A stretch of DNA of 63,973 nucleotides, counting the filler, from Psammoneis japonica (Eukaryota): NCBI GenBank assembly GCA_008632985.1. It is 3 parts of 3 records of this genome, joined end to end, with 100 filler letters (N's around TTAATTAATTAA, not from the genome) between each part and the next. Parts side by side here need not be neighbours in the genome. Positions count along the whole stretch, not along the records: positions 22,814 to 45,412 come from QPGO01000438.1; 2 more parts are not named here. One strand, 5' to 3'. Below the pieces are notes generated by a model. That model did no database searches and was not told the DNA's origin. It saw nothing but the letters and a program-made list of their open reading frames with translations. The first letter of the stretch is position 1. Every line of letters starts with the position of its first letter. Of the stretch, positions 14,559-57,274 are shown in pieces. Position numbers and translations under genes: made by a program.

Positions 14559-14856
14559 AGACCGCAGCACGTGGATCCATCCTCAACGGCCGCGAGAACA
14601 CCTTACTTCCGTTGTCGTGGATTTTGTACCAAAACCCACAAAATGTGACCTACTGTACAGTGAGACTACCTCTCAACTTCCGCCTCCGAAGACAGAAGTT
14701 TCAAATTCTGCAAACTCCAGCCAAGCGAGTCTATTTCGCACCGCAATTAACGATGTCACAGATCACACGGAGCAGCTTTTGTCGGGTCGTTGCGCCTGTT
14801 TTGTCTCCACAATCTTCCTTGTTAAGGCTCCAGGGCACAATCAGTTTCAACGGACA

Positions 14857-22713: not shown

Positions 22714-22813
22714 NNNNNNNNNNNNNNNNNNNNNNNNNNNNNNNNNNNNNNNNNNNNTTAATTAATTAANNNNNNNNNNNNNNNNNNNNNNNNNNNNNNN
22801 NNNNNNNNNNNNN
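22714..22813. other. Artificial scaffold spacer (N44-TTAATTAATTAA-N44)
   Basis: Six-frame-stop 12-mer centred in exactly 100 bp; identical structure at 45413-45512. Confidence 0.95.
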
Positions 22814-23560
22814 TACGATGACACGGAAAATGGCTCTGGTTCCGGATCGGTTCGATTGTTTCAATACAACCGCGGCTCCTCATCCTGGAACCAACTTGGA
22901 CAAACACTCATTGGCCAAGCCGCCAATGATTATTTTGGACGTTCCGTTTCCTTGAATGCGCAGGGAACCATTGTCGGCGTTGGAGCAGATTAAAATGATT
23001 CGGGTGGAAACAATGCGGGTCAAGTGTCGGTGTTTGAATACAATTCTGCCTCGTCAAAATGGGATTTGTTGGGCAATCCAATCAATGGCCAAGTCGTCAA
23101 TGGTCGGTTTGGATGGTCGGTTTCTCTTGACGACAGCGGTTTGATCGTGGCCGCGGGTGCACGTTGGGGAAGCAACGAGAGAGTTTTGGTTTATTCGTAC
23201 AACCGCTCGACTTTGACATGGAATCAACGTGGCCAAACTCTCTTGACACAACAGCCCGGCAATGAATTTGGTTGGTCCGTGTCGTTGAGTGGCAATGGAA
23301 ACGTCTTGGCGGTCGGAAGCATTTGGCATGACGTCAATGGATTGATCAATGCGGGTCAAGTTCGAATCTTTCAGCACGACAGCAATGCAGACGAATGGAA
23401 GCAAGTTGGCAATCCTTTAAATGGCGAGGCTGAAGAAGATCGTTTTGGATGGTCCGTTTCCTTGTCGGCCGACGGAAGCGTCGTTGGAGTTGGTGCACAT
23501 TTGGCTGACGTCAATGGCGACGAGTCCGGATCGCGTGCATTCACGGTAAATGACAATTAG
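22814..23560 (+). pseudogene. 3' part (FG-GAP blades 4-7) of a second copy of the receptor-like kinase
   Basis: Starts with the same sequence as 37965-37999. Four W..G..I.G....FG.SVSL..G..VAVG repeats. In-frame TAA at 22991-22993 (real lesion or sequencing error). Confidence 0.75.
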
Positions 23561-25360: not shown

Positions 25361-26268
25361 GTACAATTGCAAGAACGAAACTGAATCCTCGAGACGGTTG
25401 GGAAGCGATGGAGGATGAATTCATGAATCATGAGCGCTGCTCCGACTCGACTGTTGTTGCAAATAATATATTGTCGGCCTATACTGTGCAACCCGTCTGG
25501 AAGACACTCTCTGCTATGGGGTGTTTGTCTTGGAATCGGTAGAGCCTGAACCATGGTCTCTCAAAATTCAAACTCCTGTCTCGGCAAACAATGCAGGCAC
25601 GGTGGAGCAAGCGTACTGGATGCAACGAACGATTCGTGACGTGGTCTTGGAATTTCTGCGCTCTCTTCATTTCGCCAGATGCTTTTTTTGGATTTCCAAG
25701 AAACTCTCTAGACTGACTGCTCTCCACTCTCTAGCTGTAGCTCTAGAGATCCCTACATAAAGAGTAACACGTCCCCAGCTGCTAGTAGAGCCACTCTCTC
25801 ACATGACAGTACAACTTGCAAGAACGAAACTGAATCCTCGAGACGGTTGGGAAGCGATGGAGGATGAATTCATGAATCATGAGCGCTGCTCCGACTCGAC
25901 TGTTGTTGCAAATGATATATTGTCGGCCTATACTCTGCAACCCGTCTGGAAGACACTCTCTGCATTGCTAAGGAGTAGTTGTCTTGGAGTCGGTAGAGGC
26001 TGAACCATGGTCTCTCAAAAATTCAAACTCCTGTCTCGGCAAACAATGCAGGCACGGTGGAGCAAGCGTACTGGATGCAACGAACGATTCGTGACGTGGT
26101 CTTGGAATTTCTGCGCTCTCTTCATTTCGCCAGATGCTTTTTTTGGATTTCCAAGAAACTCTCTAGACTGACTGCTCTCCACTCTCTAGCTGTAGCTCTA
26201 GAGATCCCTACATAAAGAGTAACACGTCCCCAGCTGCCAGTAGAGCCACTCTCTTGCACGACAGTACA
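25361..26268. repeat. Near-identical tandem duplication, ~450-bp unit x2 (also at ~40462-41380)
   Basis: TTGCAAGAACGAAACTGAATCCTCGAGACGG recurs at ~25367 and ~25816. Normal TpA content; looks like a duplicated gene fragment. Confidence 0.9.
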
Positions 26269-26678
26269 ATAGAGAGAGAGAGTGCTTTGGATTTTAAGAG
26301 AGATAATAGAGGACGCACACAGCATGCTATGCTAGCTAGCTGCTTTCCGTCCCAGCTTCGTGGCACCACGTGTAAAAATTAACCCCCCATTTTTAACCAA
26401 ATGCCCACCTCGATCGACTGGCAGTAACCAGATACGAAGTTCAGCACACTTTTGGGGGCCTAGAGAATGGGGGTGAACGTTAGTTACTAACTAACCAATC
26501 ACTGAATGCTGACTTTGCACTTGCCCGTGTGACAAAGGTGCACCACGAAAAGTTAGTTTTATTTTGAAATACCGAGATACCATGAACAACACATGCCCAT
26601 TGCATTCTTGCAAGACATTGTTTTTTAAAGACTGGGAGACCGATGATGCTCATGTCTTGTGCACTTTGTAGCTCTGCT

Positions 26679-27650
26679 CTAGCTAGCTGGGGTCAAAGTC
26701 CAACTGTTTTTTTGGATCAACGATTCGATTCGAATGGGTCGAATTTCATTCCCGAGTCGTCGTGACTCGTTCATACGGTGCGTGTCTAGTGTTTTCCAAT
26801 CAACCAGTTCATGCTTGTACCAGTCCGGGAATCCGTCATGTTGATGGGTGAAGTGGATTTCGCTGTCGCCATGAAACCTGCATGCGGCAACCGCGGCATT
26901 CATGCCGGTTCCGCATCGCTTCCAGTCGCGGTGCCGCCACATGCCTGCAACTCTTTTTTTGTGGGAGCCTTGTTTGCCTGTAAAGCGCTGCTCAATCAGA
27001 GCTGTCATTGGACGTGCAACCGATTCGTTTGGGTTGCCGGGGCCGTGTGTGTCGTCACAGTGAATGTCCGCATACCGCGCAAGTCGGAGCTGATCGCCTC
27101 GCATCATGGTCTGGCTGCAGCTGGTCCGTGCCACCGCCAAGTTCTTCCAAGCTGCAGACTGAACAACGCAGTTCAAAATTTTGTCCTCAGCAATGCGAGA
27201 TAGAGCATCCGCAGGCAGCTTGTCGTGAGCTGATGCAAACTCAGTGAGCAAATTTTGGGTGCATCGCTCCTTGTGTGCCACCAGAGCGACGTCAACTGCC
27301 TCTGATCTCACAACGAATTTTGGATTGGGAGGTTTGTGCTCCTCCCAAGATGAACAATGCTGCAGTGACCAAATGACATGCTTGGCCGACTTTGGCGTGA
27401 CGTCTCTTTTTGACACTTTCCAAGAAGTGCCGGTCGACCTGGTCTGCGTCAAGTGAGGCGGCCCCGACAGAGCCGGCGATTCGTCCACCCATCTTTTGCA
27501 TGCACTCCACTCAGTGACAAAGTGCCATCCACCTTGGGTGGTGTGATGGTTTGGGCCAACAAGTCTCCCATGGAGACTAGAGACACCATCGTGTGGGTCT
27601 CTTCTTTGCATTGTGACAGCCTCGAGGGATCGTTTTTGGGGTGCACCCAC
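26679..27650 (-). mobile_element. Crypton-like tyrosine-recombinase (Ndc10 domain II-like) transposon relic, copy 1
   Basis: Motifs MMRGDQLR..YAD, TGKQ and GMWRHRDWKRCG..AA..CRF resemble the RG..R / GK / RH.D..C pattern of Crypton/Ndc10-type recombinases. Flanking TpA-depleted zone ~26600-29340. Confidence 0.65.
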
Positions 27651-29441
27651 CTCACTGTCAAAAGAAAAGAGGTTTTTGAAATCAAACGCTCACTTGTGGC
27701 GGTCGACAAGTGGAGTCGTTTCGAAACATGTTGACATTCGAGTGGGAAGAAAGAACATTTCGACAAGTGGATTTTGTGTCATGCCCTGTTCTGAAGGTTC
27801 TTGTCTTCACCAACCACAGGCCTGTCCGGGGTCCGGGAACCGGTTCCAGGGGTGGTTCCGGCGCCGGCCTCCTGCGGGCAGGAACTGCTGAGGACTCCCC
27901 CCGGATGGCTCGGTCAACCCGTGATGTCAGGGGAAAGCGTGCCCCCCAATCAGCGGTGGTTGTTCCTGCCAACCGAGGTCGCGCGACCCACCACTCGAGA
28001 CTTGTGACTCAAAGTCACGAGCGCTCGTGCCATTGAGACGACTCTCTCTCTCTCTCTCTCTCTAGAGTGGCCAGTGGCCTGCTCTCGCTCTCTCTGGAGG
28101 CAGAGCCAAAGCAGAGAACAGAGAGCAGGTCCAGAGAGCAGAGGCCACTGCTGTTGTTGCCATGGTGACTGCTGTTGCCATCTCTGCTGCTGTTGTGGCT
28201 CTGCCTCCTCTGCCAGTTTGCTGCTCTGTCATTGCACGAGCACTCACGAGCCATCGCATCCATGCCAAGCTCATCTCATCACTGTGTTGCATTGGTGACC
28301 ACTCATTGCAGCTTTTCAAAGGCCACACTTGACAAAAACCAGAGCTGTGCACTTTGTGAAGAAATGCTGCAGATGTTTGGTTGGCCAGCTGCAGATCCGC
28401 AGCACACCAATGTGAAACATGATGCTGGTCAATTTCGGTTGACCCAGAGTTTTCAAACAAGCTGCCCATCACTTTTTTTTGCCTGGCTGCCCCCAACTCT
28501 GACTTTTCATTTTTGAGTCTCACTGCTGCTGGGTTTGTTTTGCACGTGGCTCCTTCAGTGTTTGCCAGTGCTTTGTCAAATCTTTCATGCCAGCCCTTGT
28601 TGGTGAGTTTCCTGCTTGAGCCTGGTTGGAGATCCGGGATTCCAGGAAACACAGCCTTGTGCACTTGCAGCAAAATGTCCAAATCTTGATTTGTTGTGCC
28701 ATTTGCACATGCCTTCCAAGCAGTGTCACATCATCCACCCACGACTTCTTTGTTCTTGAATCTCAACCCACAAATTTGCCAGCATGTCTTGTTCTCTGAT
28801 TTTTCACTTCAGCACAGCTCTCTCCAACTCAAAACACTTTGCTGAGCACATCACAGTTGCTCTGTTGGAAGTCTCAAAAGGTCCCCTGGTGCCAAACTGG
28901 TGCAGCATCTCTTGCTTGGGCAATGGCAGCCCAGAGCTGGTCTTCAGCCATCTCATCACACTCGGTCACCACTGCAAGTCCAATCTCTTTGGCCAAAACT
29001 TTCTCTTGCACCACCACCTTTTTGCACTTCAACACAGTGGGTGCCAGAAATCTGGCTGCTGGCGGGTGGTGTCGCGACAAAGCAAAAGGCATGCTCCAAT
29101 GTTTTGTGCACAGAGCTTCTGTTGTGATGGTCCAAAAAATGACAAATGTTCAGACACCCATGACACCCTGTCAATGTCATCGTCAGCTCCCGCGGGTTTT
29201 TGACAAGTTCTCCGTGCAGTGTCAGTTGTCACTGCGGTGATGGTCTGTGCGCTAATCCGGAGCACATCACTGCCATGCCAATTTCGAATGATTGCGGTTG
29301 ATGATTCGTTCGATTCGAGTCCGGGTTCTGAGCTCACCGATCATGGATTTACCGCACTGGATGGAGCCGCGGCCGTCGCAAAACAACACCATGATGCCTC
29401 TTTACCTCTCTTGTTGATACTACTGTAATTGCATTGTCATC

Positions 29442-32016
29442 ATGGCTTCGTGGTATACAGAAACAACAATATTGTCGTCGCTGTTGTCTGCTGCTTACGT
29501 CATAACAACACCGATGCCGTTCAAGCATACCGGTCAAGCCCGGAAGCTTTTTCCAATTTCTAACCTATCTCTACGCGGAACGCAAGTTTATTCTTGTCAT
29601 CTTGATTCACTTTGTTTGTACCATGGTAATTTGGGGTGAGTAGAGTATATTGTATGATTGAGTTGTGTGTGTGTGTGTGTGTGATTTGCTATACTCATCT
29701 CAAACATACCGCCGCACCTCTATACCGTACTCCCTAACATAATACTACAGCACACTTCTTTGTGGTCAAGTTTCATCAACAAGAAAACAAAGTACCCGAG
29801 GACGCAAATCGATATTGGTGGAAACGTCTCGCTCCGCCACTCGAGTTTGGAGCCATGCATGCCATTTTGTTTCAAATGGCATTCCTACCGCTCACCATGG
29901 CTCGGCTCTCCATTGCGGCAGCCTCCAAAACATCTCTCAATACGTACTTTCCCTTCAACAAGAGTCAGCGCATTCATATTCATTTGGGATACGTCTTTGG
30001 GAGCATTGTTGTGATTGCCACGATTTTCTTTTTTGCCTTTTTTGGATTGCTTTGTTCCGATGGCGAACAAGCGTTTTGTGACAAGTTTACGTCGGAAATC
30101 ATGATTACGGGGTACATTACCGTGGCCTTTGTCTTGATTATCCTCTCTACATCATTCTTTCGAGATTACATGCCATACGAAGTCTTTTATGGCATTCATC
30201 ATTTGGTATTTGCCATGTACCTGGTGGTCTTGTTGCATACGATCGATATCAACGTTCGAAAGGACGGACAGAATCGGAGTCAAACCTTCAAGTGGTTTTC
30301 GGCGACACTCTTGTACTACGTTTCGGACCGCCTTGCCATGCGGCTTAATCATCGCTACAAGACGCGTGTCTTCAAGCCAAAATTGTCAAGAATACAAAGT
30401 CGAGTATGATTTTGCTACAGCTCAGACGTCCGTCCTTGTTTCAATACGAACCGGGTCAGTACGCGCATCTTCGGTTTCCCGACATTGATTCGTATTGGCA
30501 TCCCTTTTCGATTGGAAGCAGTCCGGATTCCAACGTGTTGGAGTTTTATATTGAAGTCTATGACGACAAATCGTGGACGGGAAAACTCTGTCAATTGTTG
30601 GGTAATGACGTTAGCCACGAGAATGTTCGTGTTCAAGTCACGGGCCCGTACGGAACACGCTTGGGTGATACTCATCGATACTCTCATGCCATGGCTATTG
30701 GCAGTGGTTCTGGTGTCGTTCCCATTTTGGGACTCTACAAAAAGCACATTTGTCAGCTACTCCGATTGGACCCACAAACATACTTTGAAGAACAAGCTCA
30801 AATGCATTCGCAACTCAAGCGTATGGAACGAGCGCGAGAACAAACACGTGGATCGTGGCTCAACTACTTTTTGCGGTGTTCACCTCAACCGACCCGACAC
30901 GAAATGGGCGTCATTTCGGGAATCTTTGATTCGAGCGATGCCGAAACCAAGGACTTGCGAGAGGCGGCCAAGCGTGCGTCTTTACCGATTTATGGCGTCA
31001 ATATATTGATGCAACTGGTTGTCTTGGGAGTAATCATGTTGGGATTGACCTTGTCGTGGAATACCATGCCGTTTGAACTCTACGACGGCATGCGAGAAGT
31101 GTTGATTGTTGGCTCGATTGTGTTTCAAGGCGCCTTTGCCGTTGTGTCGATTGGATACTGGGACCGCGGCTCGTTGCTGGCGTATGTTGATGTTTTGATT
31201 GTCATTGCTGGTGCCGTGGCCAATTGGTATTGGTTTGAGTACGACAAGTGGGCCAACTTTGAAGCGGCAGAGCATGTGTATTACATCTTGTTGTTTGGAT
31301 ACATGACGGCGCGGTTGTGGCATTCGGCCGTCAAGCCACGATACTGTTCATTGCGGAGCAGCTTGGAACGACAACACACGAGTTCAGCATTGGACAAGCT
31401 GCACTTTGTTTGGATTACGCGTTCATCCACCAACGTTTTGAAGATTGCACCCACAATCATGCAAGAATGGAATGCGCTTGTTGCGGCGTGGGGATTGGAG
31501 AATGCCGTCAAGGTGTGTCAGGTTTCTATTTACGTTACCGACAAGGACAAGGCCGCCGTGGGCTATCTCAAGCAGGAGTTGTCCAAGACGCCCCTTTACA
31601 AGCAAGGTGCATTCCATTATGAGCGTCCTGACATTTCCAAATTGTTGGAAGAGCATGCCATGGAACGCATTTATGATGAGAGTCGTCCCACCTCGTCTAC
31701 CCTCTTGTGCTTTTGCGGATCTCCCAAGCTATCATCAGTGATAAGCAAAGCCAAGACCATTGTGGATATATCAACAATGATTACGGGAAACAAGTACCAC
31801 CAAATGGATTTCGTTTCCGAGAGTTACAGTGCCTACACGAAGCGTCCGTCGTCGTCGAACAATAGCAACGCGGTAGTTGTCGCTGCCTCGGCAAAGACGC
31901 CACAGTACAGTGTCTTTATGGATTCACCCAGCTTTATGGAGAAGCAACATTCGGGAGATGAATTGGATACGACGGATACCTTTGAAGACAATGAGGACCA
32001 CCTTATTTCCATTTGA
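29442..32016 (+). CDS. NADPH oxidase / ferric reductase superfamily protein (algal NOX/RBOH-like); start approximate
   Basis: Exon ending YLYAERKFILVILIHFVCTMVIW, then intron 29636-29750 (GTGAGT..TACAG). Haem-ligand His in TM helices (HIHLG, HHL..H), FAD motif WHPFSI, NADPH motifs GPYG, GSGSGVVP, FVW, CFCGS. Apparent 1-nt frameshifts near 29524 and 30372. Confidence 0.85.
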
Positions 32017-33150: not shown

Positions 33151-34271
33151 CGACTGTTTGTCCTGCTTCTCTTGATTTTGCAGGCAGGCTGGGAGAAAAT
33201 GAGTCAATTTGCTGCTGTTCTGTTGCTTTCCCCAAACAACAATGGCAAGTCTGCCACCCGTGGCAGAATGTGCAATCAAGGAATTGCTGCGGCAACATGA
33301 AGAAAACGCAGCAAGCCACCAAGGAAGAAGAGTGTCCGTCAACGGCTGTTTTGGAGGTCCTGCTTCACTTGAGCTGCACCAATGTAAAAGTGATGCAGGC
33401 TTCACACTTTTTCATCTTGCAGTCTTCTTTGCAAACATCCTTTTGAAATGCCTGGCACCACGTGCAAAGCTTTTGGGTCCATCAGGAATGAACCGCTCTC
33501 ACAGCTCTTTTTGTGCTCGATCGACGACAATGGGGCGAACAACCCAAGGTCCAAATTGTCATGGGTCTTTTTGGCAAATGCAAATGACTGTGCACCGGAG
33601 TGGAGTGGCTTTCCATGAGACAACAAACGCCAACGTTGGAAAACAGGGTGGGTCTTTTTTCAACAATGGCAGACTTGACAACATGCATTGATTGACCAAG
33701 GTGGCAAAACACGCCACGTGTGCACCAACAACAGCATCATCATTTCTGCTCGACAACAACAGGGGATGATTTCGATTGGTGTTGTTGGTTTGGTTGTTGA
33801 TGTTGAAGTGAAGTGCGGCATTGGCGGCCTCTCTTTTTGGCACGCACCGGCCGGCTGGCACGCACCGGTGTGACTGCACCTATGTGGGTGACAGACGGAC
33901 GGACCAACCGGATGGCCACATAGTACGCCCGCCTAAAACCAACATGCGTGCAGCGCAACGCTTGAACCGCACGATCGTTCATCGCGGGAATAAGCATGCA
34001 AGCAGTTGGAAGTTGAAGTTATTGGTTATTGTTCTGTTGTTCTTCTGTTATCCCATTGCTTCATTTAATTCGTTCCTGCCCTTGTCTCACGGGCAAGCGT
34101 CGCTGTTCTACAGCATAATCGATCTCGCCTTGTTGCCATTGTGTTGGTGCCTGTCTCCTTTGCAGTTGCGTTTCTGCTGAGCAGAGGAACCACCTCTTGT
34201 CTCGCGTCTCACCGATCCGGACTCCGCAATTTTGATTCTGCATCTCGCAGAAAGACACAAAAACAGCAGAC

Positions 34272-37200
34272 ATGCTTGGTGACATCATCGCCGGCATAGA
34301 AGCGGCTTTCAACTTGTGCGCCGTGATTTACAAGAGCTATGAAACGGTAAAGATCATGCCGGATTTGGCCAAGACCCTCAAGGACCGCGTACAAATATTC
34401 AAACCGCGACTCGAGAAACTCGTTAGGGAATGCCAGGCATCAGGCACATCACAGAAGGTAATTCCGCTTTTGCATATTCAAAGCTTGAACACGGTGTTGG
34501 GTGACATTCAAAAGTACATGAAGAAGCTTCAGGATGACTCTAAACTACGAAAGTTGAAGAATCGGGTGTTTTATCAGAGTCTCCTGGATGAATATGAAGA
34601 GCTCAACACCAAGCTCAATCGTTGTCGGGATGATCTTAAATTTGACTTTGAGTTTGATGTCGATGCCGAGAGAAAAGCGTTTGAGAATGAAACGAAAGGT
34701 CTCCTACAGTGTCTTATTGATCATCAGGGTCAAGAGCACCGTATTCTGCGCGAGATGCTTTCTGAAGTCCTCAGGTTCATCAAGGGTCACAAAGCGCTAA
34801 ATCTCAATGAACAAAACAGTCCTGCTATTGTGACCGCTTCTGCATTTATGGACAATAGTGACTCTGCAACTCTACGAGCTATCATTGATGAGCAGAGTGC
34901 CATTGAATATGAACTCCCGCCATCGGAGGTCGTTTTAGAAGATATCGAGCTTGGAGCAGGCACCTTTGGTGTCGTATACAAGGCAACATACAATAATCAA
35001 GATGTTGCCATCAAGAAGCCTCATCGTCGAGAATCGGATGTTTTGGCGGAACTCATGAACCAAGAAAGATGCAGCGGCTCGCCTTTTGTTGCCCTTATAC
35101 ACGGCTTTGTTTATGTCAATGAGATTCGGTCTATTGTTATGGAGTTCATGCCATGTGGTACTCTAGGAGGTCTACTACGCCACGCAATGGGAAGGGATGG
35201 GATTGTGTCCATCAGCAAGGACCAGCAAAGTCTCGAGGCCACACTAGCTGCGTACACAGTAATTCAGCTCTTTCACAAGGTTAGTGAGGGAATGCGATTC
35301 ATCAGTCAACGTAATGTGATACACCGCGACCTCAAGCCGGAGAATATTCTTCTAAGTCAAACTCTTGACCCCAAGATTGGGGATTTTGGGTCTGCTCGAG
35401 AGCTCGCAAACAGCGCGACTCACCTTTCGGGATCCGCTGCTGGATCTGTATACTATATGGCTCCGGAAGTATTGACGGTCCTTAAAGCTGACAAAGGACA
35501 ATACTCCTATCCTGCCGACCAGTACAGTTTTGGAATGATCATGGTTAAATGCTGCCATGGTCTGTTTGGTCAGCAGTCTCGTGTGGACCGGCACGACGAG
35601 GACGCGCCTCTTCCAGAGATTCCTCTTCCTGATGCGTTCCCTTCTTCGGTAACAGATATCAAGAACAATTGCATTGCTTCAGACCCATTGATGCGCTATG
35701 GTCGTGGCACCGCTTCAGAATCACTTCTATCAGAAGCGTTCGAGAAGGTACTGCAGCAATTGGATAGCTCTGTCTCTTATCCAAAGATTGATGGGTATTA
35801 TGGTGACGACGTTGCAGAGGTGGCAAATATTGCTCGGATCGCTTTTGAGAGTAAGACGCATCGTGGGGTATCTGGCATTATAACTTCGTCCTCATCGCTG
35901 ATCCCAACACCCGGCATGGAGAAGAAGCCATTGAAGGACGGAGAGCCGAGCTACTCCACCGCGTCCTTGTCACATTCGTCTACATCCGCGAAAGAACCGG
36001 TTCCTCGTGCAAGGAAGGAGAAGAAAAAGAAGAAACCGACTGCTGATCTCCGAGTTCAAAAAGAGCAAAGTGCATCGTCTCGCAGAAAAAAGCGTCCTGA
36101 TCTCCGAGTTCAAAAAGAGCAAAGTGCATCGTCTCGCAGGAAAAAGCGTCCAACTCGTTCCGGCAGCTCGAAAGAAAAAGGACAACCAGCGCAAACTGGA
36201 TCATCAGCAATTGCTTCAAGTGGTCACAATGACAGTGCTGAAAGAGAACGGGGCGTTAAGGACGAGACGCAAAATACAAGCGAATATCATAGCCGCACCA
36301 GTCGGGAGAGGTCCGTCAACAGCACAGCCACAGCAAGCCTTGCGCTATCGGCTGCCGCGTATGTCGCGCCAGATGCTTTCACAGTGACGTCTGGAGACCA
36401 AGCTGCACAACCCGAAGAACCGGACAGAGATGACCGCGTCACAGTTACTTCAGATTCCAACAAAGTGATGGAGATGGATCCAGCACAAGTCGTAGAGGCG
36501 GTTCCTGCTACTTCTGATGGTGGTGGTGGCGGACAGAATGAGAAAGCAAATGACACAACGCGAATTAGTGACGAGGATGAGAATGCTGAAGATGAGCTTC
36601 ATCGCAAGTACCTTCGCAAACGATTCATTATTCCGGGCGTTGTATTGTTGGCGATTGCAGCGATTGTCAGTATTGTTGTTTGCAGTAAAGCCGTGGGACA
36701 CAGGTGGTGGAGGGAGCCCCACTTTCCCCCCTACTGTTTCCCCTACTGTTGCACCCGCCACAGAGACTACCGAACGAGCCACCGGTTTGGTCATGAGTTT
36801 GATTGGTATTGATACCGAGTTTGATGAAAATGATTCCGAGTTGTGGGCTACGGCAACCAAAGCATTCGTCGAGGATTATTACAACACTCGTCGTCGTCGT
36901 CGTGGCCTTGGCTATCTCCAGACCCCTCGTATATTACAAGTATCGAATATACAGAATGTCGAGACGTCTTTGGATGTTACTAACACCATTGTGGTTGAAG
37001 ATGGCAATGGTGGAGAACCACCCTTCGAGTCACATACAACCAAGCTATCACGTATACTTTTGAAGACAGCAGCAACGAAAACATTTCCATGGATGCCATG
37101 GTGACCGAACCATTCAAGACGTCTGATAGTCGATCGGCCTACCAAAAAGACCTCCAGGCGGCGGGCACCAGTGCTGGAAGCAACATTTTTGACAATTTGA

Positions 37201-38697
37201 TTGGCACTAGTGAAGTTTCAACCAGCACAGCTGCTCCGACACCGTCACCTACAAATAGCATTCCAATTACGGAACTACCAACACAAGATCCCGCGTCGCC
37301 ACCGTCGACTCCGGGTCCAACGACTCTCAATCCAACATCGTTGCCGACGACAAACCCTACTCCTCGTCCAACTCTCAATCCAACACCTCGTCCTACACTC
37401 AATCCAACGCCTCGTCCAACTCTCAATCCAACTCCACGCCCCACTCCATCACCAGCTCCAACAACACCCAATCCCACCAGTGGTGGTGGCAGCAGTAGTT
37501 TGCCGCCAAACGGTCCATGGAATCCCGTTGGACAAACTTTGCACGGCAAGGCTGCAGATGATTTTTTTGGCGATTCCGTGTCCTTGTCTCGTGATGGCAG
37601 GGTCATGGCTGTTGGAGCGGAGCAATCTTCTTCCAATCCCGGCTATGTTGTTGTGCAACGATACAATCCAAACACCCAACAATGGGAACAAATTGGCCAA
37701 GAATTGATTGGACAAGCCGGCGGTGACGAGTTTGGAGAGTCTGTTTCGTTAAATGGCGATGGCACGATTCTTGCAGTTGGAGCGGATGACAATGACAGTG
37801 GTGGAACAAATGCCGGTCACGTTCGTGTGTTTGAATACAACTCGGCATTGGATCGTTGGGTCCAACTCGGCAGTGACATTCTTGGACAAGACGCTGGTGA
37901 TTGTTTTGGTTATTCCGTGTCGCTCTCGGACGCGGGAGACATTCTTGCCGTGGGAGCTTACGGTGATGACACGGAAAATGGCTCTGGTTCCGGATCGGTN
38001 NNNNNNNNNNNNNNNNNNNNNNNNNNNNNNNNNNNNNNNNNNNNNNNNNNNNNNNNNNNNNNNNNNNNNNNNNNNNNNNNNNNNNNNNNNNNNNNNNNNN
38101 NNNNNNNNNNNNNNNNNNNNNNNNNNNNNNNNNNNNNNNNNNNNNNNNNNNNNNNNNNNNNNNNNNNNNNNNNNNNNNNNNNNNNNNNNNNNNNNNNNNN
38201 NNNNNNNNNNNNNNNNNNNNNNNNNNNNNNNNNNNNNNNNNNNNNNNNNNNNNNNNNNNNNNNNNNNNNNNNNNNNNNNNNNNNNNNNNNNNNNNNNNNN
38301 NNNNNNNNNNNNNNNNNNNNNNNNNNNNNNNNNNNNNNNNNNNNNNNNNNNNNNNNNNNNNNNNNNNNNNNNNNNNNNNNNNNNNNNNNNNNNNNNNNNN
38401 NNNNNNNNNNNNNNNNNNNNNNNNNNNNNNNNNNNNNNNNNNNNNNNNNNNNNNNNNNNNNNNNNNNNNNNNNNNNNNNNNNNNNNNNNNNNNNNNNNNN
38501 NNNNNNNNNNNNNNNNNNNNNNNNNNNNNNNNNNNNNNNNNNNNNNNNNNNNNNNNNNNNNNNNNNNNNNNNNNNNNNNNNNNNNNNNNNNNNNNNNNNN
38601 NNNNNNNNNNNNNNNNNNNNNNNNNNNNNNNNNNNNNNNNNNNNNNNNNNNNNNNNNNNNNNNNNNNNNNNNNNNNNNNNNNNNNNNNNNNNNNNNN
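34272..38697 (+). CDS. Putative type II receptor-like kinase: MLKL/HeLo-like helical bundle - kinase - TM - SEA-like domain - Pro/Thr stalk - FG-GAP beta-propeller; 3' end in N gap, inferred from the duplicate
   Basis: Kinase motifs GAGTFG, VAIK, HRDLKPEN, DFG, APE. TM helix at ~36625-36690 preceded by RKYLRKR. Three ORFs joined by apparent 1-nt frameshifts at ~36680 and ~37020. (TPRPTLNP)n stalk. Three FG-GAP repeats before the gap and four more in the duplicate at 22814-23560. Confidence 0.75.
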
Positions 38698-41600
38698 NNN
38701 NNNNNNNNNNNNNNNNNNNNNNNNNNNNNNNNNNNNNNNNNNNNNNNNNNNNNNNNNNNNNNNNNNNNNNNNNNNNNNNNNNNTGGCTCGTGTCATTGTG
38801 TGCTGTTTTTCGCGTTTGTTCCAAAAATCAAAAAAGTCTGTCTGTCGTGCGATTCCGCTAGTCTATCACGAACCACACATCACACACACACACATCACAC
38901 ATCGGCTCGCGGTCTTGAACAACCATGACGCTACACCAACAGCACTACGAATCAACAACAACAACAACAACAACAACAACGACACCATGACGTTTGGAGG
39001 ATTATCCGCCTCGGACTCCATACAAGAGAAGCTCTGTGCCCATTCTTATTGCTACTATTACGCGTAATGATTCACTTAAGTATTGTCGAGGCTTGCCCGA
39101 ATAATCTCAAGAAAGATCTCGTCTTTATGCAGAACGGCTACCTTGACGACTTTTTCGAGTCCAAGGGTCTGATCATGGACAACACACACACACACAAGTC
39201 CTTTGAGGGCTTGACTGCAGCCACCGGGGAGCATGCCCACAGAGTATGGAATCAGCAGCAGAGCCGGAACCAGTCAATCAAAAGTCAAGCAACTGTCTCA
39301 GCAAGCACTCATAGGAATGGTGGAGCGAAGGTATTGTACGAGTATACTGGATGCAACCAAAGAACGATTTCTGTGATGCGGTTTGTTCGGTCGCTTCTAT
39401 TCGGATATGCTGCTGGAGAAACGCGTTGCTGCTGCTGCCACTGCTCCTACAAAGGACAATAGCGAGTCGCTCGTGGCATGCGCAGCGAAATAAGCTCCTT
39501 TTGTTGGATGTGCATCCTTGATGAATATGACGTTGGAGAGAAACCAATGGTGCTGCCACGCACGCTGTTGTTGTTGTTGTCATGCATGTCTACGTACTCT
39601 CTCAAACGAAATTAAAAATGGCCTCCATCCACACTAGTTTGGGCGTGCGACTCTGTGAATGTTGCTGAGCTCTTTCGAGATGTGGGCTTTGAACAACGCG
39701 TCGGTTATTATGCAGTGATGTGTTTTGAATGTACGTGTTTGATGTTGTTTCCATGTATTGCTGATTCATAACCATCTGCAGCGACCTGGGTGGTAATGTA
39801 TGGATTTTTTGGAAAAGAGTTGCAACTCGTATAAAGTGGATTGGAAACCACGTGTGTCTCGCGGTCGGACAGTTCTCCAGCACAAACCATGGCGGCGCCT
39901 GTTGGATATCATACAGTGAACAAGTAGCGGGTGGAACGGGCTTGTTGGGAACTGCTGTGGTGGGACTAGACGAAAAAGCGCGATGAGGAAATCAACATCC
40001 AAACAACCACAACCGAAGGGGGGTGCACGGTGCCGGTACTGCTACTACTACTACTACTGCTACTACTGTACGAACTATATAACAACAATGACACGGATGA
40101 TTATGACTTTGGAAATGTCGATATCTTTGTTTCGACCATTCCATCGACACCCGTCAATATTAACGATGACAACGACAAGAAGGATGACGAAGAGTATTAG
40201 TAGTATCAACAATGGCACTAATAACAATGGCGCGGTGGTGGAAATATCATTTCATCCTATGGAGACTTGAAAGCACGATTTGCCGATAAACTCAACAAAA
40301 AAAAAAGGGACCGCTTGGCTGCTTGTGGGATGTCTTTGTTCCTCCCTAATACTACTGCGAATAATAAGGACAAGGACAATGAAAACCACTACCATGACCT
40401 TGGAGATGTCGATAAAGGAAGGGGTTCCTTTGATACCGCATACGTGGCAGAATATAAAAATGTACAATTGCAAGAACGAAACTGAATCCTCGAGACGGTT
40501 GGGAAGCGATGGAGGATGAAGTCGTGAATCCTGAGCGCTGCTCNNNNNNNNNNNNNNNNNNNNNNNNNNNNNNNNNNNNNNNNNNNNNNNNNNNNNNNNN
40601 NNNNNNNNNNNNNNNNNNNNNNNNNNNNNNNNNNNNNNNNNNNNNNNNNNNNNNNNNNNNNNNNNNNNNNNNNNNNNNNNNNNNNNNNNNNNNNNNNNNN
40701 NNNNNNNNNNNNNNNNNNNNNNNNNNNNNNNNNNNNNNNNNNNNNNNNNNNNNNNNNNNNNNNNNNNNNNNNNNNNTTCATTTCGCCAGATGCTTTTTTT
40801 GGATTTCCAAGAAACTCTCTAGACTGACTGCTCTCCACTCTCTAGCTGTAGCTCTAGAGATCCCTACATAAAGAGTAACACGTCCCCAGCTGCTAGTAGA
40901 GCCACTCTCTCACATGACAGTACAACTTGCAAGAACGAAACTGAATCCTCGAGACGGTTGGGAAGCGATGGAGGATGAATTCATGAATCATGAGCGCTGC
41001 TCCGACTCGACTGTTGTTGCAAATGATATATTGTCGGCCTATACTCTGCAACCCGTCTGGAAGACACTCTCTGCATTGCTAAGGAGTAGTTGTCTTGGAG
41101 TCGGTAGAGGCTGAACCATGGTCTCTCAAAAATTCAAACTCCTGTCTCGGCAAACAATGCAGGCACGGTGGAGCAAGCGTACTGGATGCAACGAACGATT
41201 CGTGACGTGGTCTTGGAATTTCTGCGCTCTCTTCATTTCGCCAGATGCTTTTTTTGGATTTCCAAGAAACTCTCTAGACTGACTGCTCTCCACTCTCTAG
41301 CTGTAGCTCTAGAGATCCCTACATAAAGAGTAACACGTCCCCAGCTGCCAGTAGAGCCACTCTCTTGCACGACAGTACAATAGAGAGAGAGAGTGCTTTG
41401 GATTTTAAGAGAGATAATAGAGGACGCACACAGCATGCTATGCTAGCTAGCTGCTTTCCGTCCCAGCTTCGTGGCACCACGTGTAAAAATTAACCCCCCA
41501 TTTTTAACCAAATGCCCACCTCGATCGACTGGCAGTAACCAGATACGAAGTTCAGCACACTTTTGGGGGCCTAGAGAATGGGGGGTGAACGTTAGTTACT

Positions 41601-41789
41601 AACTAACCAATCACTGAATGCTGACTTTGCACTTGCCCGTGTGACAAAGGTGCACCACGAAAAGTTAGTTTATTTTGAAATACCGAGATACCATGAACAA
41701 CACATGCCCATTGCATTCTTGCAAGACATTGTTTTTTAAAGACTGGGAGACCGATGATGCTCATGTCTTGTGCACTTTGTAGCTCTGCT

Positions 41790-42761
41790 CTAGCTAGCTG
41801 GGGTCAAAGTCCAACTGTTTTTTTGGATCAACGATTCGATTCGAATGGGTCGAATTTCATTCCCGAGTCGTCGTGACTCGTTCACGGTGCGTGTCTAGTG
41901 TTTTCCAATCAACCAGTTCATGCTTGTACCAGTCCGGGAATCCGTCATGTTGATGGGTGAAGTGGATTTCGCTGTCGCCATGAAACCTGCATGCGGCAAC
42001 CGCGGCATTCATGCCGGTTCCGCATCGCTTCCAGTCGCGGTGCCGCCACATGCCTGCAACTCTTTTTTTGTGGGAGCCTTGTTTGCCTGTAAAGCGCTGC
42101 TCAATCAGAGCTGTCATTGGACGTGCAACCGATTCGTTTGGGTTGCCGGGGCCGTGTGTGTCGTCACAGTGAATGTCCGCATACCGCGCAAGTCGGAGCT
42201 GATCGCCTCGCATCATGGTCTGGCTGCAGCTGGTCCGTGCCACCGCCAAGTTCTTCCAAGCTGCAGACTGAACAACGCAGTTCAAAATTTTGTCCTCAGC
42301 AATGCGAGATAGAGCATCCGCAGGCAGCTTGTCGTGAGCTGATGCAAACTCAGTGAGCAAATTTTGGGTGCATCGCTCCTTGTGTGCCACCAGAGCGACG
42401 TCAACTGCCTCTGATCTCACAACGAATTTTGGATTGGGAGGTTTGTGCTCCTCCCAAGATGAACAATGCTGCAGTGACCAAATGACATGCTTGGCCGACT
42501 TTGGCGTGACGTCTCTTTTTGACACTGCTTCCAAGAAGTGCCGGTCGACCTGGTCTCGCGTCAAGTGAGGCGGCCCCGACAGAGCCGGCGATTCGTCCAC
42601 CCATCTTTTGCATGCACTCCACTCAGTGACAAAGTGCCATCCACCTTGGGGGTGTGATGGTTTGGGCCAACAAGTCTCCCATGGAGACTAGAGACACCAT
42701 CGTGTGGGTCTCTTCTTTGCATTGTGACAGCCTCGAGGGATCGTTTTTGGGGTGCACCCAC
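41790..42761 (-). mobile_element. Crypton-like recombinase relic, copy 2
   Basis: Near-identical to 26679-27650. Confidence 0.65.
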
Positions 42762-44556
42762 CTCACTGTCAAAAGAAAAGAGGTTTTTGAAATCAAACGC
42801 TCACTTGTGGCGGTCGACAAGTGGAGTCGTTTCGAAACATGTTGACATTCGAGTGGGAAGAAAGAACATTTCGACAAGTGGATTTTGTGTCATGCCCTGT
42901 TCTGAAGGTTCTTGTCTTCACCAACCACAGGCCTGTCCGGGGTCCGGGAACCAGTTCCAGGGGTGGTTCCGGCGCCGGCCTCCTGCGGGCAGGAACTGCT
43001 GAGGACTCCCCCGGATGGCTCGGTCAACCCGTGATGTCAGGGGAAAGCGTGCCCCCCAATCAGCGGTGGTTGTTCCTGCCAACCGAGGTCGCGCGACCCG
43101 CCACTCGAGACTTGTGACTCAAAGTCACGAGCGCTCGTGCCATTGAGACGACTCTCTCTCTCTCTCTCTCTCTAGAGTGGCCAGTGGCCTGCTCTCGCTC
43201 TCTCTGGAGGCAGAGCCAAAGCAGAGAACAGAGAGCAGGTCCAGAGAGCAGAGGCCACTGCTGTTGTTGCCATGGTGACTGCTGTTGCCATCTCTGCTGC
43301 TGTTGTGGCTCTGCCTCCTCTGCCAGTTTGCTGCTCTGTCATTGCACGAGCACTCACGAGCCATCGCATCCATGCCAAGCTCATCTCATCACTGTGTTGC
43401 ATTGGCGACCACTCATTGCAGCTTTTCAAAGGCCACACTTGACAAAAGCCAGAGCTGTGCACTTTGTGAAGAAATGCTGCAGATGTTTGGTTGGCCAGCT
43501 GCAGATCCGCAGCACACCAATGTGAAACATGATGCTGGTCAATTTTGGTTGACCCAGAGTTTTCAAACAAGCTGCCCATCACTTTTTTTTGCCTGGCTGC
43601 CCCCAACTCTGACTTTTCATTTTTGAGTCTCACTGCAGTTGCTGGGTTTGTTTTGCACGTGGCTCCTTCAGTGTTTTGCCAGTGCTTTGTCAAATCTTTC
43701 ATGCCAGCCCTTGTTGGTGAGTTTCCTGCTTGAGCCTGGTTGGAGATCCGGGATTCCAGGAAACACAGCCTTGTGCACTTGCAGCAAAATGTCCAAATCT
43801 TGATTTGTTGTGCCATTTGCACATGCCTTCCAAGCAGTGTCACATCATCCACCCACGACTTCTTTGTTCTTGAATCTCAACCCACAAATTTGCCAGCATG
43901 TCTTGTTCTCTGATTTTTCACTTCAGCACAGCTCTCTCCAACTCAAAACACTTTGCTGAGCACATCACAGTTGCTCTGTTGGAAGTCTCAAAAGGTCCCC
44001 TGGTGCCAAACTGGTGCAGCATCTCTTGCTTGGGCAATGGCAGCCCAGAGCTGGTCTTCAGCCATCTCATCACACTCGGTCACCACTGCAAGTCCAATCT
44101 CTTTGGCCAAAACTTTCTCTTGCACCACCACCTTTTTGCACTTCAACACAGTGGGTGCCAGAAATCTGGCTGCTGGCGGGTGGTGTCGCGACAAAGCAAA
44201 AGGCATGCTCCAATGTTTTGTGCACAGAGCTTCTGTTGTGATGGTCCAAAAAATGACAAATGTTCAGACACCCATGACACCCTGTCAATGTCATCGTCAG
44301 CTCCCGCGGGTTTTTGACAAGTTCTCCGTGCAGTGTCAGTTGTCACTGCGGTGATGGTCTGTGCGCTAATCCGGAGCACATCACCTGCCATGCCAATTTC
44401 GAATGATTGCGGTTGATGATTCGTTCGATTCGAGTCCGGGTTCTGAGCTCACCGATCATGGATTTACCGCACTGGATGGAGCCGCGGCCGTCGCAAAACA
44501 ACACCATGATGCCTCTTTACCTCTCTTGTTGATACTACTGTAATTGCATTGTCATC

Positions 44557-45412
44557 ATGGCTTCGTGGTATACAGAAACAACAATATTGTCGTCGCTGTT
44601 GTCTGCTGCTTACGTCATAACAACACCGATGCCGTTCAAGCATACCGGTCAAGCCCGGAAGCTTTTTCCAATTTCTAACCTATCTCTACGCGGAACGCAA
44701 GTTTATTCTTGTCATCTTGATTCACTTTGTTTGTACCATGGTAATTTGGGGTGAGTAGAGTATATTGTATGATTGAGTTGTGTGTGTGTGTGTGTGATTT
44801 GCTATACTCATCTCAAACATACCGCCGCACCTCTATACCGTACTCCCTAACATAATACTACAGCACACTTCTTGTGGTCAAGTTTCATCAACAAGAAAAC
44901 AAAGTACCCGAGGACGCAAATCGATATTGGTGGAAACGTCTCGCTCCGCCACTCGAGTTTGGAGCCATGCATGCCATTTTGTTTCAAATGGCATTCCTAC
45001 CGCTCACCATGGCTCGGCTCTCCATTGCGGCAGCCTCCAAAACATCTCTCAATACGTACTTTCCCTTCAACAAGAGTCAGCGCATTCATATTCATTTGGG
45101 ATACGTCTTTGGAGCATTGTTGTGATTGCCACGATTTTCTTTTTTGCCTTTTTTGGATTGCTTTGTTCCGATGGCGAACAAGCGTTTTTGACAAGTTTAC
45201 GTCGGAAATCATGATTACGGGGTACATTACCGTGGCCTTTGTCTTGATTATCCTCTCTACATCATTCTTTCGAGATTACATGCCATACGAAGTCTTTTAT
45301 GGCATTCATCATTTGGTATTTGCCATGTACCTGGTGGTCCTTGTTGCATACGATCGATATCAACGTTCGAAAGGACGGACAGAATCGGAGTCAAACCTTC
45401 AAGTGGTTTTCG
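44557..45412 (+). CDS. 5' part of the second NADPH oxidase copy, truncated by scaffold end
   Basis: Near-identical to 29442-30302 with extra 1-nt indels. Confidence 0.7.
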
Positions 45413-45512
45413 NNNNNNNNNNNNNNNNNNNNNNNNNNNNNNNNNNNNNNNNNNNNTTAATTAATTAANNNNNNNNNNNNNNNNNNNNNNNNNNNNNNNN
45501 NNNNNNNNNNNN
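45413..45512. other. Artificial scaffold spacer (N44-TTAATTAATTAA-N44)
   Basis: Same structure as 22714-22813. Confidence 0.95.
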
Positions 45513-47908: not shown

Positions 47909-48045
47909 ACTGACTGTAGCGTAACTTATAGAGAGCGCCGTTGTTTCTTATTGTACTGGTTAAAGGGTGGTGGTGATAATGCTGTTACTGTGCTTCTGCG
48001 GCTGCCGTTCGTCATTGAGCTCTGCAGAAAAATATCCGCGATAAT

Positions 48046-56671: not shown

Positions 56672-57274
56672 AATTCTTCGGATTCTTGGAATTGTCATTG
56701 AGGACATGAGAGGTTGTGGGGACATCCTAAAAAATCGATAAATTCCCTGCGACGGGTGCGTGGCACGGTTTTTCAGGAGAGCTCGAAAGTTCTGAAAAAT
56801 TGGGATTGCCGGCGTGGCATGTTCAAAAATGCATTCAGTTGCACACAAAGACAATTTGTCGTGAATTCTACACGAAAAAGTCACATTGGGGAAAACACAT
56901 CAAACAACAAGTGAGTTTGTGTGATGCGCTGTCATGGCGATAAATTGGAAAAAAAGAGTGTCCGAGCACCTCACCACAGCCCCAAAAATGGCATGAGACA
57001 TCAAACACAACGGTCATCCGCGTCACTGGTGCGGCGGCCATGCTGCTCAGCCGCCACAATGCCAGCCCTGGCGGCAGGGCCCTGTGCACGTACAGGCAAT
57101 GCAGCATGCAACAGCACACACCCACACCCACAAAGAAAGACAAGTGGTCAATGCTCCCCGCAGGCCTGGTTCAGGATTTTCTGCTGTGCGAGAAACGCAC
57201 ACTGGCAGTGCGACACGCGCCTCATTCAATCATTGCCAAAAAGCGGCGACATGGTGGTGGTGCATTGTTGCAGC

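What the first reader, a model, noticed from the sequence alone, without database searches (positions are those of the whole stretch)
34272..38697. Candidate cell-death immune receptor: MLKL/HeLo-like bundle and intact kinase fused to an extracellular 7-bladed FG-GAP propeller
Seen: the first ~140 aa are amphipathic helices (MLGDIIAGIEAAFNLCAVIYKSYETVK...LKDRVQIF...L..VL.DI..Y.KK...L..LN.KLNRC..DL.F). They are followed by a kinase with all catalytic motifs, a disordered linker, a basic patch plus one TM helix, an SEA-like segment, a TPRPTLNP stalk, and seven FG-GAP-like repeats when both copies are combined. Established: the MLKL four-helix bundle and related HeLo/RPW8 domains execute membrane-disrupting cell death; animal MLKL is a soluble pseudokinase; typical receptor kinases have the ectodomain at the N-terminus. 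Inference: the N-terminal pattern resembles an MLKL-type bundle plus brace, and the positive-inside rule gives type II topology. Sensor, kinase and executioner would then be one inverted-topology polypeptide, an architecture I do not recognise.
Basis: partly seen in the sequence, partly recalled or inferred. Interest (0 to 1): 0.85.

Follow-up and report, generated by a model that had tools for sequence, protein, structure and literature searches.

The report
Inverted receptor kinase with MLKL-like head
One long gene of a probable diatom-like alga appears to encode a membrane protein with a seven-bladed sensor outside the cell, an intact-looking kinase inside, and at its tip a helical domain that weakly resembles the membrane-breaking head of the cell-death protein MLKL.

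Summary
From the ATG at 34272 there is a 200-residue all-helical N-terminal region and a kinase with every catalytic motif. After these come a 300-residue charged linker, one hydrophobic helix, a Pro/Thr stalk and FG-GAP_2 repeats that run into an assembly gap.

- **Frameshifts.** Contigs of two public DNA runs lack one base at 36679 and carry an extra T behind 37020, at full depth. These are exactly the two frame switches, so the frame is continuous.
- **Gap.** Its content is represented by a near-identical fragment at 22814-23560. This fragment supplies blades 4-7 and the stop, but carries an in-frame TAA in blade 4.
- **N-terminal domain.** It matches Pfam MLKL_N just below threshold (E 1e-5, 25.5 bits against a cut-off of 27). 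Its nearest language-model neighbours are MLKL_N/RPW8 clusters. The 3D fold could not be tested because both models had pLDDT near 51.
- **Relatives.** Only two related clusters exist among 1.84 billion representatives. One has the same head, kinase and membrane helix but an LRR-type ectodomain.

Best reading: a type II receptor kinase with an MLKL-like head. Executioner function is inferred only. No RNA evidence was found.

The parts
34272..34646 (+). N-terminal helical domain, residues 1-125: four predicted helices, the MLKL_N-like candidate four-helix bundle
   Evidence: Pfam MLKL_N covers residues 13-122 with E 1e-5 and 25.5 bits against a cut-off of 27. Helices are predicted at 2-26, 30-56, 66-93 and 98-121. 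Atlas neighbours carry MLKL_N/RPW8. The start position is shared by P0001 and P0002.
34647..34871 (+). Brace-like helices, residues 126-200, including the most conserved stretch of the family (residues 121-144)
   Evidence: Helices are predicted at 130-150 and 156-171. Invariant columns 122-144 are seen in the 3-sequence alignment.
34947..35702 (+). Protein kinase domain (TKL/Raf-like) with all catalytic motifs
   Evidence: Pfam Pkinase E 2.5e-36 and PK_Tyr_Ser-Thr E 2.6e-31. The best solved relatives are B-Raf/Raf, E 7.7e-20. Motif positions are given.
35712..36623 (+). Charged, Ser/Thr/Pro-rich linker, residues 481-784, with a 54-base tandem repeat at 36043-36151 that encodes basic clusters
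   Evidence: Composition is 50 K/R, 47 D/E and 81 S/T/P in 304 residues. Tandem repeat: 2.0 copies, 98% matches.
36624..36681 (+). Single transmembrane helix, residues 785-803. It contains the surplus base of the window at 36679.
   Evidence: This is the only hydropathy peak (2.97, 19-residue window) in the 1478-residue read-through. One base is left out at 36679 in the contigs of both runs, at full depth.
36682..37220 (+). The window lacks a T behind 37020.
   Evidence: No Pfam family. Atlas best hit 0.88 to an unnamed cluster; SEA appears only at rank 9 with 0.80. A T is put in behind 37020 in both runs at full depth.
37221..37517 (+). Pro/Thr-rich stalk with 24-base repeats
   Evidence: Tandem repeats at 37323-37446. 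Translation. The runs' contigs lack 6 bases at 37491, which keeps the frame.
37518..37999 (+). FG-GAP_2 repeats 1-3; the third is cut by the gap
   Evidence: Pfam FG-GAP_2 E 3.3e-17, 3 stretches. Repeat starts are given.
38000..38783 (.). Assembly gap of 784 N that hides repeats 4-7 and the stop
   Evidence: N run. Loose ends of the runs' contigs at 37999 and 38784 match the window at 22852 and 23617-23646.
22814..23560 (+). Near-identical duplicate fragment that represents the gap content: the end of repeat 3, repeats 4-7 and the stop at 23558-23560. It has an in-frame TAA at 22991-22993.
   Evidence: 35 of 38 bases are identical to 37962-37999. Pfam FG-GAP_2 E 7.8e-17. Repeats and the TAA are shown. 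The downstream block 23647-30301 matches 38784-45412 at 93-99.5%.

Best explanation
The locus encodes one protein of about 1478 residues: a single-pass type II (N-in, C-out) receptor-like kinase.

**Outside the cell:** a juxtamembrane domain of unknown family, a Pro/Thr-rich stalk and a seven-bladed FG-GAP_2 propeller that would bind a ligand.

**Inside the cell:** a long charged linker, a catalytically competent TKL-type kinase and, at the extreme N-terminus, a four-helix domain plus two brace-like helices. This N-terminal part is a distant member of the MLKL_N/HeLo/RPW8 group.

**Shown here:** the continuous frame, the domain order, the kinase motifs, the single hydrophobic helix, the seven repeats, and a rare family with a swapped (LRR-type) ectodomain.

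**Inferred:**
- The topology.
- Ligand-driven clustering activates the kinase, and phosphorylation releases the N-terminal bundle from the brace/kinase.
- The bundle, held at the inner face of the same membrane by the linker, then acts on that membrane (ion leak or lysis) or otherwise signals.
For: **Continuity of the frame.**
- Contigs of runs X1 and X2 differ from the window by one base fewer at 36679 and an added T behind 37020, both at full depth. These are exactly the two frame switches.
- The read-through is open except for one TAA, which comes from the duplicate fragment.
- By my own arithmetic, 202 stop-free codons in frame 1 between the two switches have a chance of about 6e-5.

**Domains.**
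- Pkinase E 2.5e-36; FG-GAP_2 E 3e-17 and 8e-17.
- All catalytic motifs are present. E260 is invariant in the family.

**N-terminal domain.**
- MLKL_N E 1e-5 in the window protein, matched in 2 of 3 members; HeLo 0.026 in 1 of 3. The next-best Pfam families are a thousand times weaker.
- Atlas hits score 0.93. Ranks 2 and 3 carry MLKL_N (26% and 22% of members). Rank 8 carries MLKL_N 62% with RPW8 16%. RPW8 appears at 0.89. All 10 of the ten best hits that have a family share one family or clan.
- Four helices are predicted within residues 1-121 and two more before the kinase. This is the order described for MLKL (abstracts; passages of 10.1101/681015).

**Topology.**
- One hydropathy peak at 785-803, with a basic cluster on the kinase side.
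- The ecto part is rich in S/T/P and has 6 N-x-S/T sites.

**Family.**
- P0002, P0004 and P0008 have the same head, kinase and helix, followed by a Pro-rich stalk and an LRR-type ectodomain.
- P0001 and P0002 start at the same residue as the window protein.
Against: - The MLKL_N match is below Pfam's curated cut-off (25.5 against 27 bits).
- A profile of the three heads found no MLKL among solved structures at E up to 10.
- Both AlphaFold2 models have pLDDT near 51. Foldseek gave 0 matches at E <= 0.001, so the four-helix-bundle fold is not shown.
- Atlas recognition (2279) is just under the 2300 mark, and a third of shuffled proteins also get ten concordant hits.
- The kinase is active-looking and the protein is membrane-anchored, unlike animal and plant MLKLs.
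- The only available sequence for blades 4-7 carries an in-frame TAA.
- The runs that corrected the frame are DNA of one sample and may be the source of the assembly.
- No listed contig piece lies on 36073-36109, inside the 54-base repeat.
Confidence: 0.5

Rival explanations
1. It is an inverted-topology receptor kinase, but the N-terminal helical region is only a regulatory or dimerisation module (coiled-coil-like). It has no membrane-acting role. Signalling is by phosphorylation of other proteins.
For: - The MLKL_N hit is sub-threshold.
- No MLKL was found among solved structures with the family profile.
- The fold is unresolved.
- Helical, charged sequences easily collect weak matches. Mitofilin, EPS8_2nd and RIN1 also appear, at E 0.01-0.04.
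- The kinase looks active, so it needs no executioner to give an output.
Against: - MLKL_N stands about a thousand-fold above the other weak matches and recurs in 2 of 3 members.
- The independent atlas search points to the same clan.
- Helix number, helix lengths and the position directly before a kinase fit MLKL.
- Helix 1 is the most hydrophobic helix of the domain (mean 0.95).
Confidence: 0.3
2. The locus is a decaying or mis-assembled copy, either a pseudogene or a chimera of paralogues. The protein as reconstructed here is not made.
For: - There is an in-frame TAA at 22991-22993 in the only sequence available for blade 4.
- The window differs from the runs' contigs at three indel sites within 900 bases.
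- The propeller region has about ten times the depth of the kinase region, with many variant contigs, so paralogues could be mixed.
- The scaffold starts and ends with the same 7.5-kb block.
- No RNA holder is listed. This is no evidence either way.
Against: - The 5' 1.97 kb (34100-36072) is identical in the runs' contigs, and the two frameshifts vanish there.
- 1289 codons are open before the TAA.
- Loose ends on both sides of the gap continue exactly into the fragment.
- Related proteins keep the same order of parts.
Confidence: 0.15
3. Kinase and propeller are two separate genes. One is a tail-anchored kinase that ends at 36812. The other is a secreted FG-GAP protein that starts downstream.
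For: In the window as given, frame 0 stops at 36810-36812. Frame 1 holds ATG codons before a hydrophobic stretch.
Against: - The stop at 36810 is out of frame once the surplus base at 36679 is removed, as in both runs.
- Relatives continue from the helix into a Pro-rich stalk and an ectodomain within one protein.
Confidence: 0.03

Closest known systems
Animal MLKL (necroptosis effector)
   Same: An N-terminal four-helix region is followed by two brace helices and then a kinase fold. Here the helices lie at 2-121 and 130-171 with the kinase from about 221. The first 125 residues of MLKL form the killer bundle and helix 6 of the brace restrains it (abstracts listed). Pfam MLKL_N gives a weak match.
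   Different: MLKL is soluble, is a pseudokinase and is switched on by RIPK3. This protein has every catalytic motif, a membrane helix and a 676-residue ecto part. No sequence match to solved MLKL chains was found.
Plant MLKLs (AtMLKL1-3; wheat Pm13)
   Same: HeLo-type bundle, brace, kinase-like domain, then a C-terminal extension. An immune role has been shown in plants (10.1101/681015, passages read; the Pm13 abstract in the listing). Atlas neighbours include streptophyte MLKL_N/RPW8 clusters.
   Different: According to the passages read, plant MLKLs lack the canonical phosphoryl-transfer residues and carry a serine-rich tail. That paper contains no occurrence of the word 'transmembrane'. 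Here the extension is a linker, a membrane helix and a propeller.
Bacterial receptor Ser/Thr kinases of the PknB/PknD type (recalled, no call)
   Same: The order is the same: cytosolic kinase first, one membrane helix, extracellular sensor last. As I recall, the PknD sensor is a beta-propeller.
   Different: They are prokaryotic, have no N-terminal helical bundle, and use a different propeller family (NHL, recalled). No homology was tested here.
Plant and oomycete LRR receptor-like kinases
   Same: A surface receptor with a TKL-type kinase. The relative P0004/P0008 has an LRR-type ectodomain.
   Different: These are type I proteins, with the ectodomain first and the kinase last (abstracts). 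Here the order is reversed and a head domain is added.
Fungal HeLo/HELL and plant RPW8/CC-R domains
   Same: They are N-terminal helical membrane-targeting cell-death domains of the same wider group. HeLo matches at E 0.026 in 1 of 3 members. RPW8 clusters score 0.89 in the atlas.
   Different: They are activated by amyloid templating or by NLR oligomerisation (abstracts), not by a kinase and ectodomain fused in cis.

Membership tests
MLKL_N / HeLo-like / RPW8 group (Pfam PF22215 and relatives) | Sequence match to the family profile | tested here: inconclusive
   E 1e-5 with 25.5 bits for the head alone, and 23.1 bits in the whole protein, against a curated cut-off of 27. The match is seen in 2 of 3 members. 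HeLo gives 0.026 in 1 of 3. Atlas neighbours carry MLKL_N/RPW8. No solved MLKL was hit by the profile.
MLKL_N / HeLo-like / RPW8 group (Pfam PF22215 and relatives) | Four-helix-bundle fold | tested here: inconclusive
   Four helices are predicted in residues 2-121. However, pLDDT was 51.8 and 50.7, and Foldseek found 0 matches at E <= 0.001.
MLKL_N / HeLo-like / RPW8 group (Pfam PF22215 and relatives) | Position at the extreme N-terminus | tested here: met
   The first in-frame ATG after a stop is at 34272. P0001 and P0002 start at the same alignment column.
MLKL_N / HeLo-like / RPW8 group (Pfam PF22215 and relatives) | Membrane permeabilisation or cell death on activation | not testable with these tools
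   Needs expression of residues 1-125 or 1-200.
MLKL proper (animal or plant) | Pseudokinase domain lacking catalytic residues | tested here: not met
   GAGTFG, VAIK, HRDLKPEN, DFG and APE are all present.
MLKL proper (animal or plant) | Soluble cytosolic protein without a membrane helix | tested here: not met
   Hydrophobic helix at 785-803, followed by a 676-residue ecto part.
Eukaryotic protein kinase, TKL-like | Pfam kinase domain above cut-off, with catalytic motifs | tested here: met
   Pkinase scores 125.9 bits against a cut-off of 31.7. The best solved relatives are B-Raf/Raf. Motifs are listed. Activity itself was not tested.
FG-GAP_2 beta-propeller | FG-GAP_2 repeats above cut-off, seven in number | tested here: met
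   62.8 and 61.6 bits against a cut-off of 23. Seven FGxSVSL units are counted. Four of them come only from the duplicate fragment. The fold was not modelled.
SEA domain | Match to the SEA profile | tested here: not met
   No Pfam family at E <= 0.1 in 36688-37101. The atlas shows SEA only at rank 9 with a score of 0.80. The segment could be scanned only in pieces because of the frame break.
Type II single-pass membrane protein | One membrane helix, no cleavable signal, positive side towards the N-terminal part | tested here: met
   One hydropathy peak. Five K/R in the eight residues before it, against one K after it. Net charge is +1 against 0 over 15 residues on each side. The N-terminus carries acidic residues. 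This rests on hydropathy only; no dedicated predictor and no experiment were used.

The most novel reading that the evidence does not exclude
A cell-surface receptor that carries its own necroptosis-type executioner. Ligand binding to the propeller (or, in the relative, to LRRs) would activate the fused kinase, which would release an MLKL-like bundle already tethered under the plasma membrane. Perception, switch and membrane attack would then be one polypeptide. This would be a candidate molecular basis for pathogen- or stress-triggered cell death in diatom-like algae. The ectodomains would be exchangeable, as in immune receptor families.
Probability: 0.22. Interest if true: 0.85.

Novelty: new variant of a known kind. 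Interest (0 to 1): 0.62.

Why it matters
[quoted passage not shown] In those lineages they are switched on by separate receptors and kinases or by NLRs. Here a candidate bundle sits in one frame with an active-looking kinase, a membrane helix and an extracellular propeller, and a relative carries LRRs instead.

If the head is a true executioner, three things follow:
- It would be the shortest known path from surface perception to membrane damage.
- It would extend this domain group to algae of the stramenopile type.
- It would give a concrete gene for the long-discussed programmed cell death of phytoplankton.

In six full-text searches I found no paper describing such a fusion or an MLKL-like protein in diatoms or stramenopiles. 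Subscription journals are not covered by these searches.

Tried and rejected
**Structure of the head.**
- A single-sequence AlphaFold2 model and a 3-sequence-alignment model of residues 1-200 had pLDDT 51.8 and 50.7.
This is meaningless at that confidence.
- The other structural libraries were not tried for the same reason.

**Self-association.** Complex prediction on two copies of the head returned no verdict (score 0.01, mark 0.32). This is no evidence either way.

**Searches for more relatives.**
- The search for homologous proteins, residues 1-210, near lengths: none.
- The same tool with the 3-sequence profile, longer lengths: only P0002.
- Metagenome contigs with the profile: 541 pattern matches, none confirmed.
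- Metagenome contigs with P0004: 31 loci, all generic kinase matches of 26-50% identity over the kinase only.

**Ectodomain search.** It returned 4028 FG-GAP_2 proteins. The best 120 are mostly bacterial or unnamed. None of the 120 rows shows PF00069 or PF07714, although one row's list is cut. It therefore says nothing about kinase fusions.

**Expression.** No RNA holder is listed among the 3 runs found. This is no evidence on expression.

**Other attempts.**
- No whole genome is held for the window.
- Earlier findings of the scan: nothing by place, sequence or words.
- An intron explanation for the two frame switches was considered and dropped. The region between them is open in frame 1 for 202 codons, and DNA contigs themselves remove both shifts.
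Full report
**What is in the sequence**

Reading stop to stop with the standard code, a frame-0 ORF runs 34236-36812 with its first ATG at 34272. A frame-1 ORF runs 36496-37104. Frame 0 is open again from 36999 until a run of 784 N at 38000-38783.

The window looks eukaryotic and is a draft. It has ten N runs, and no whole genome is held. At 22714-22813 and 45413-45512, two N runs of 44 flank the same 12-base six-frame stop linker. The window is therefore a chain of scaffolds, and the gene lies on the piece 22814-45412.

**The frameshifts**

Two public DNA runs of one sample (X1 and X2, stored as contigs) hold 0.91 and 0.90 of the sampled words of 34100-37999. I laid them on 34100-39300.

- Their contigs are identical to the window over 34100-36072.
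- They lack one base at 36679 (depth with/all 134.8/134.8 and 247.6/247.6).
- They have an extra T behind 37020 (148.5/148.5 and 223.6/223.6).
- They lack six bases at 37491, which keeps the frame.

The first two sites are exactly where the frame goes 0 to 1 and back. With them applied, the frame is continuous from 34272 to the gap.

Two caveats apply. The runs may be the assembly's own source. No listed contig piece covers 36073-36109, inside a 54-base tandem repeat.

**The gap**

- Loose ends of the contigs behind 37999 and before 38784 occur in the window at 22852 and at 23617-23646.
- 37962-37999 matches 22814-22851 in 35 of 38 bases.
- Downstream, 23647-30301 matches 38784-45412 at 93-99.5%.

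The fragment 22814-23560 is therefore a near-identical copy of what the gap hides. Between the two loose-end anchors the fragment holds 795 bases where the window has 784 N. Joined, the frame gives 1478 residues ending at the stop 23558-23560, with one in-frame TAA at 22991-22993.

**Anatomy (residue numbers of the read-through; window coordinates in 'parts')**

- **Residues 1-200:** all helical, with helices predicted at 2-26, 30-56, 66-93, 98-121, 130-150 and 156-171.
- **Residues 226-477:** Pfam Pkinase, E 2.5e-36. The motifs GAGTFG, VAIK, HRDLKPEN, DFG and APE are present, and a glutamate at 260 is invariant in the family. The nearest solved kinases are B-Raf and Raf, E 7.7e-20.
- **Residues 481-784:** a charged, S/T/P-rich linker with a duplicated basic 18-residue unit.
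- **Residues 785-803:** the only hydropathy peak, preceded by a basic cluster.
- **After the helix:** a roughly 180-residue segment without a Pfam family, then a Pro/Thr stalk with 24-base repeats.
- **Propeller:** seven units of 53-59 residues, each with FGxSVSL, matched by Pfam FG-GAP_2 at E 3.3e-17 and 7.8e-17.

The 'SEA-like' label is not supported. There is no Pfam hit, the atlas best is 0.88 to an unnamed cluster, and SEA appears only at rank 9 with 0.80.

**Is the head MLKL-like?**

For:
- Pfam MLKL_N matches residues 13-122 at E 5.5e-5 in the whole protein and 1e-5 in the head alone.
- It is matched in 2 of 3 family members, and HeLo at 0.026 in 1 of 3.
- Other weak families are about a thousand times worse.
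- The language-model atlas puts the head next to clusters carrying MLKL_N (26%, 22%, 62%, 57% of members), RPW8 and MCAfunc. All ten best family-bearing hits fall in one clan.
- The number and spacing of helices and the position directly before a kinase are those described for MLKL (abstracts listed; passages of 10.1101/681015).

Against:
- The score (25.5 bits) is under Pfam's cut-off of 27.
- Atlas recognition (2279) is just under its mark.
- A profile of the three heads hits no MLKL chain in the PDB at E up to 10.
- Both structure models are of low confidence, and their fold search is empty.

I put homology to the MLKL_N/HeLo/RPW8 group at roughly 0.7 to 0.75. Executioner function is much lower.

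**Relatives**

A full HMMER scan of 1.84 billion representatives with the head found 2 proteins.

- **P0001** is a 310-residue fragment.
- **P0002** has 700 residues. Its cluster has 7 members. Of the three whose sequences I read, P0004 and P0008 (786 residues each) show, as P0002 does, the same head and a kinase that keeps DFG and APE, and all three have HCD and a changed glycine loop. A membrane helix, a Pro-rich stalk and an LRR-type cap and repeats then follow. P0003 is a 582-residue fragment that starts after the head.
- Identity to the window protein is 40-47%.

The order head-kinase-helix-ectodomain is therefore conserved while the ectodomain differs. Further searches added nothing.

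The propeller region has about ten times the depth of the kinase region in the runs, with many variants. Many FG-GAP_2 paralogues therefore exist in that genome.

**Mechanism**

Shown: the architecture. Inferred from the positive-inside rule, from the need of a kinase for cytosolic ATP and from the extracellular character of FG-GAP_2 and Pro/Thr stalks: N-in, C-out.

The most likely working model has three steps.
1. Ligand-induced clustering of the propeller.
2. Trans-phosphorylation by the kinase.
3. Release of the N-terminal bundle, which the 300-residue linker keeps within reach of the inner face of the same membrane.

Whether the bundle then permeabilises the membrane, as in MLKL, or only regulates the kinase is open. 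The basic clusters of the linker could bind acidic lipids. They also look like nuclear-targeting signals, so release of the cytosolic part by cleavage is a remote alternative that I did not test.

**Comparison and novelty**

It works like an MLKL joined in cis to a receptor. It is not an MLKL proper, because the kinase is intact and the protein is membrane-anchored.

Its order of parts is that of bacterial PknB/PknD-type receptor kinases (recalled). It is the reverse of plant and oomycete receptor-like kinases (abstracts).

Six full-text searches found no description of such a fusion or of MLKL-like proteins in diatoms or stramenopiles:
- 58 papers hold both terms; none of the 15 listed is relevant.
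- 31 papers hold at least three of the four terms; none of the 15 listed contains 'stramenopiles'.
- nothing relevant.

I rate it a new variant of a known kind. The taxon is only suggested: a diatom cluster is the nearest neighbour, and I recall the LRR cap of P0004 as diatom-like.

**Verdict**

Interest is 0.62. It is limited by the unresolved fold, the TAA in the only copy of blade 4, and the lack of RNA evidence.

Noticed in passing
window 22714-22813 and 45413-45512: Two N runs of 44 flank the 12-base string TTAATTAATTAA, which gives stops in all six frames. The same pattern occurs at both places, so the window is a chain of separate scaffolds. Neighbourhood across these points is not genomic.
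   Followed up: partly
window 22814-30301 and 37962-45412: The scaffold that carries the gene begins and ends with the same 7.5-kb block, at 93-99.5% identity with an offset of about 15.1 kb. This may be a tandem duplication of a 15-kb unit, two alleles laid in series, or an assembly wrap-around. It was not resolved.
   Followed up: partly
window 29738-32013 (+): A ferric-reductase / NADPH-oxidase-like gene (Ferric_reduct, FAD_binding_8, NAD_binding_6) lies just upstream on the same strand. It is split into two overlapping frames at about 30349-30406, which may be another indel of the assembly or an intron. The duplicated block ends inside it at 30301.
   Followed up: no
window 14383-17663 (+): A class C GPCR-like gene (7tm_3, E 5.9e-29) sits in the second of two abutting long ORFs (14383-16278 and 16272-17663). 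This again looks like a frame break.
   Followed up: no
window 48045-56672: A repeat cluster. There are direct copies at 99% (48335-50615 against 50953-53227) and an inverted copy at 93-95% (54496-56672). Its long ORFs have no Pfam family.
   Followed up: no
window 36778-36885 and 37580-38100: The runs hold a second version of 36778-36885 with 9 differences in 108 bases, at about 40% of the local depth. They also show roughly tenfold depth with many variants over the FG-GAP repeats. Paralogues or alleles of the ectodomain therefore exist in that genome.
   Followed up: no
proteins P0082 and P0115: Two FG-GAP_2 proteins in the public collection also carry PF16903 and PF04451. I recall these as giant-virus major capsid domains. 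This suggests FG-GAP_2 repeats fused to a capsid protein.
   Followed up: no
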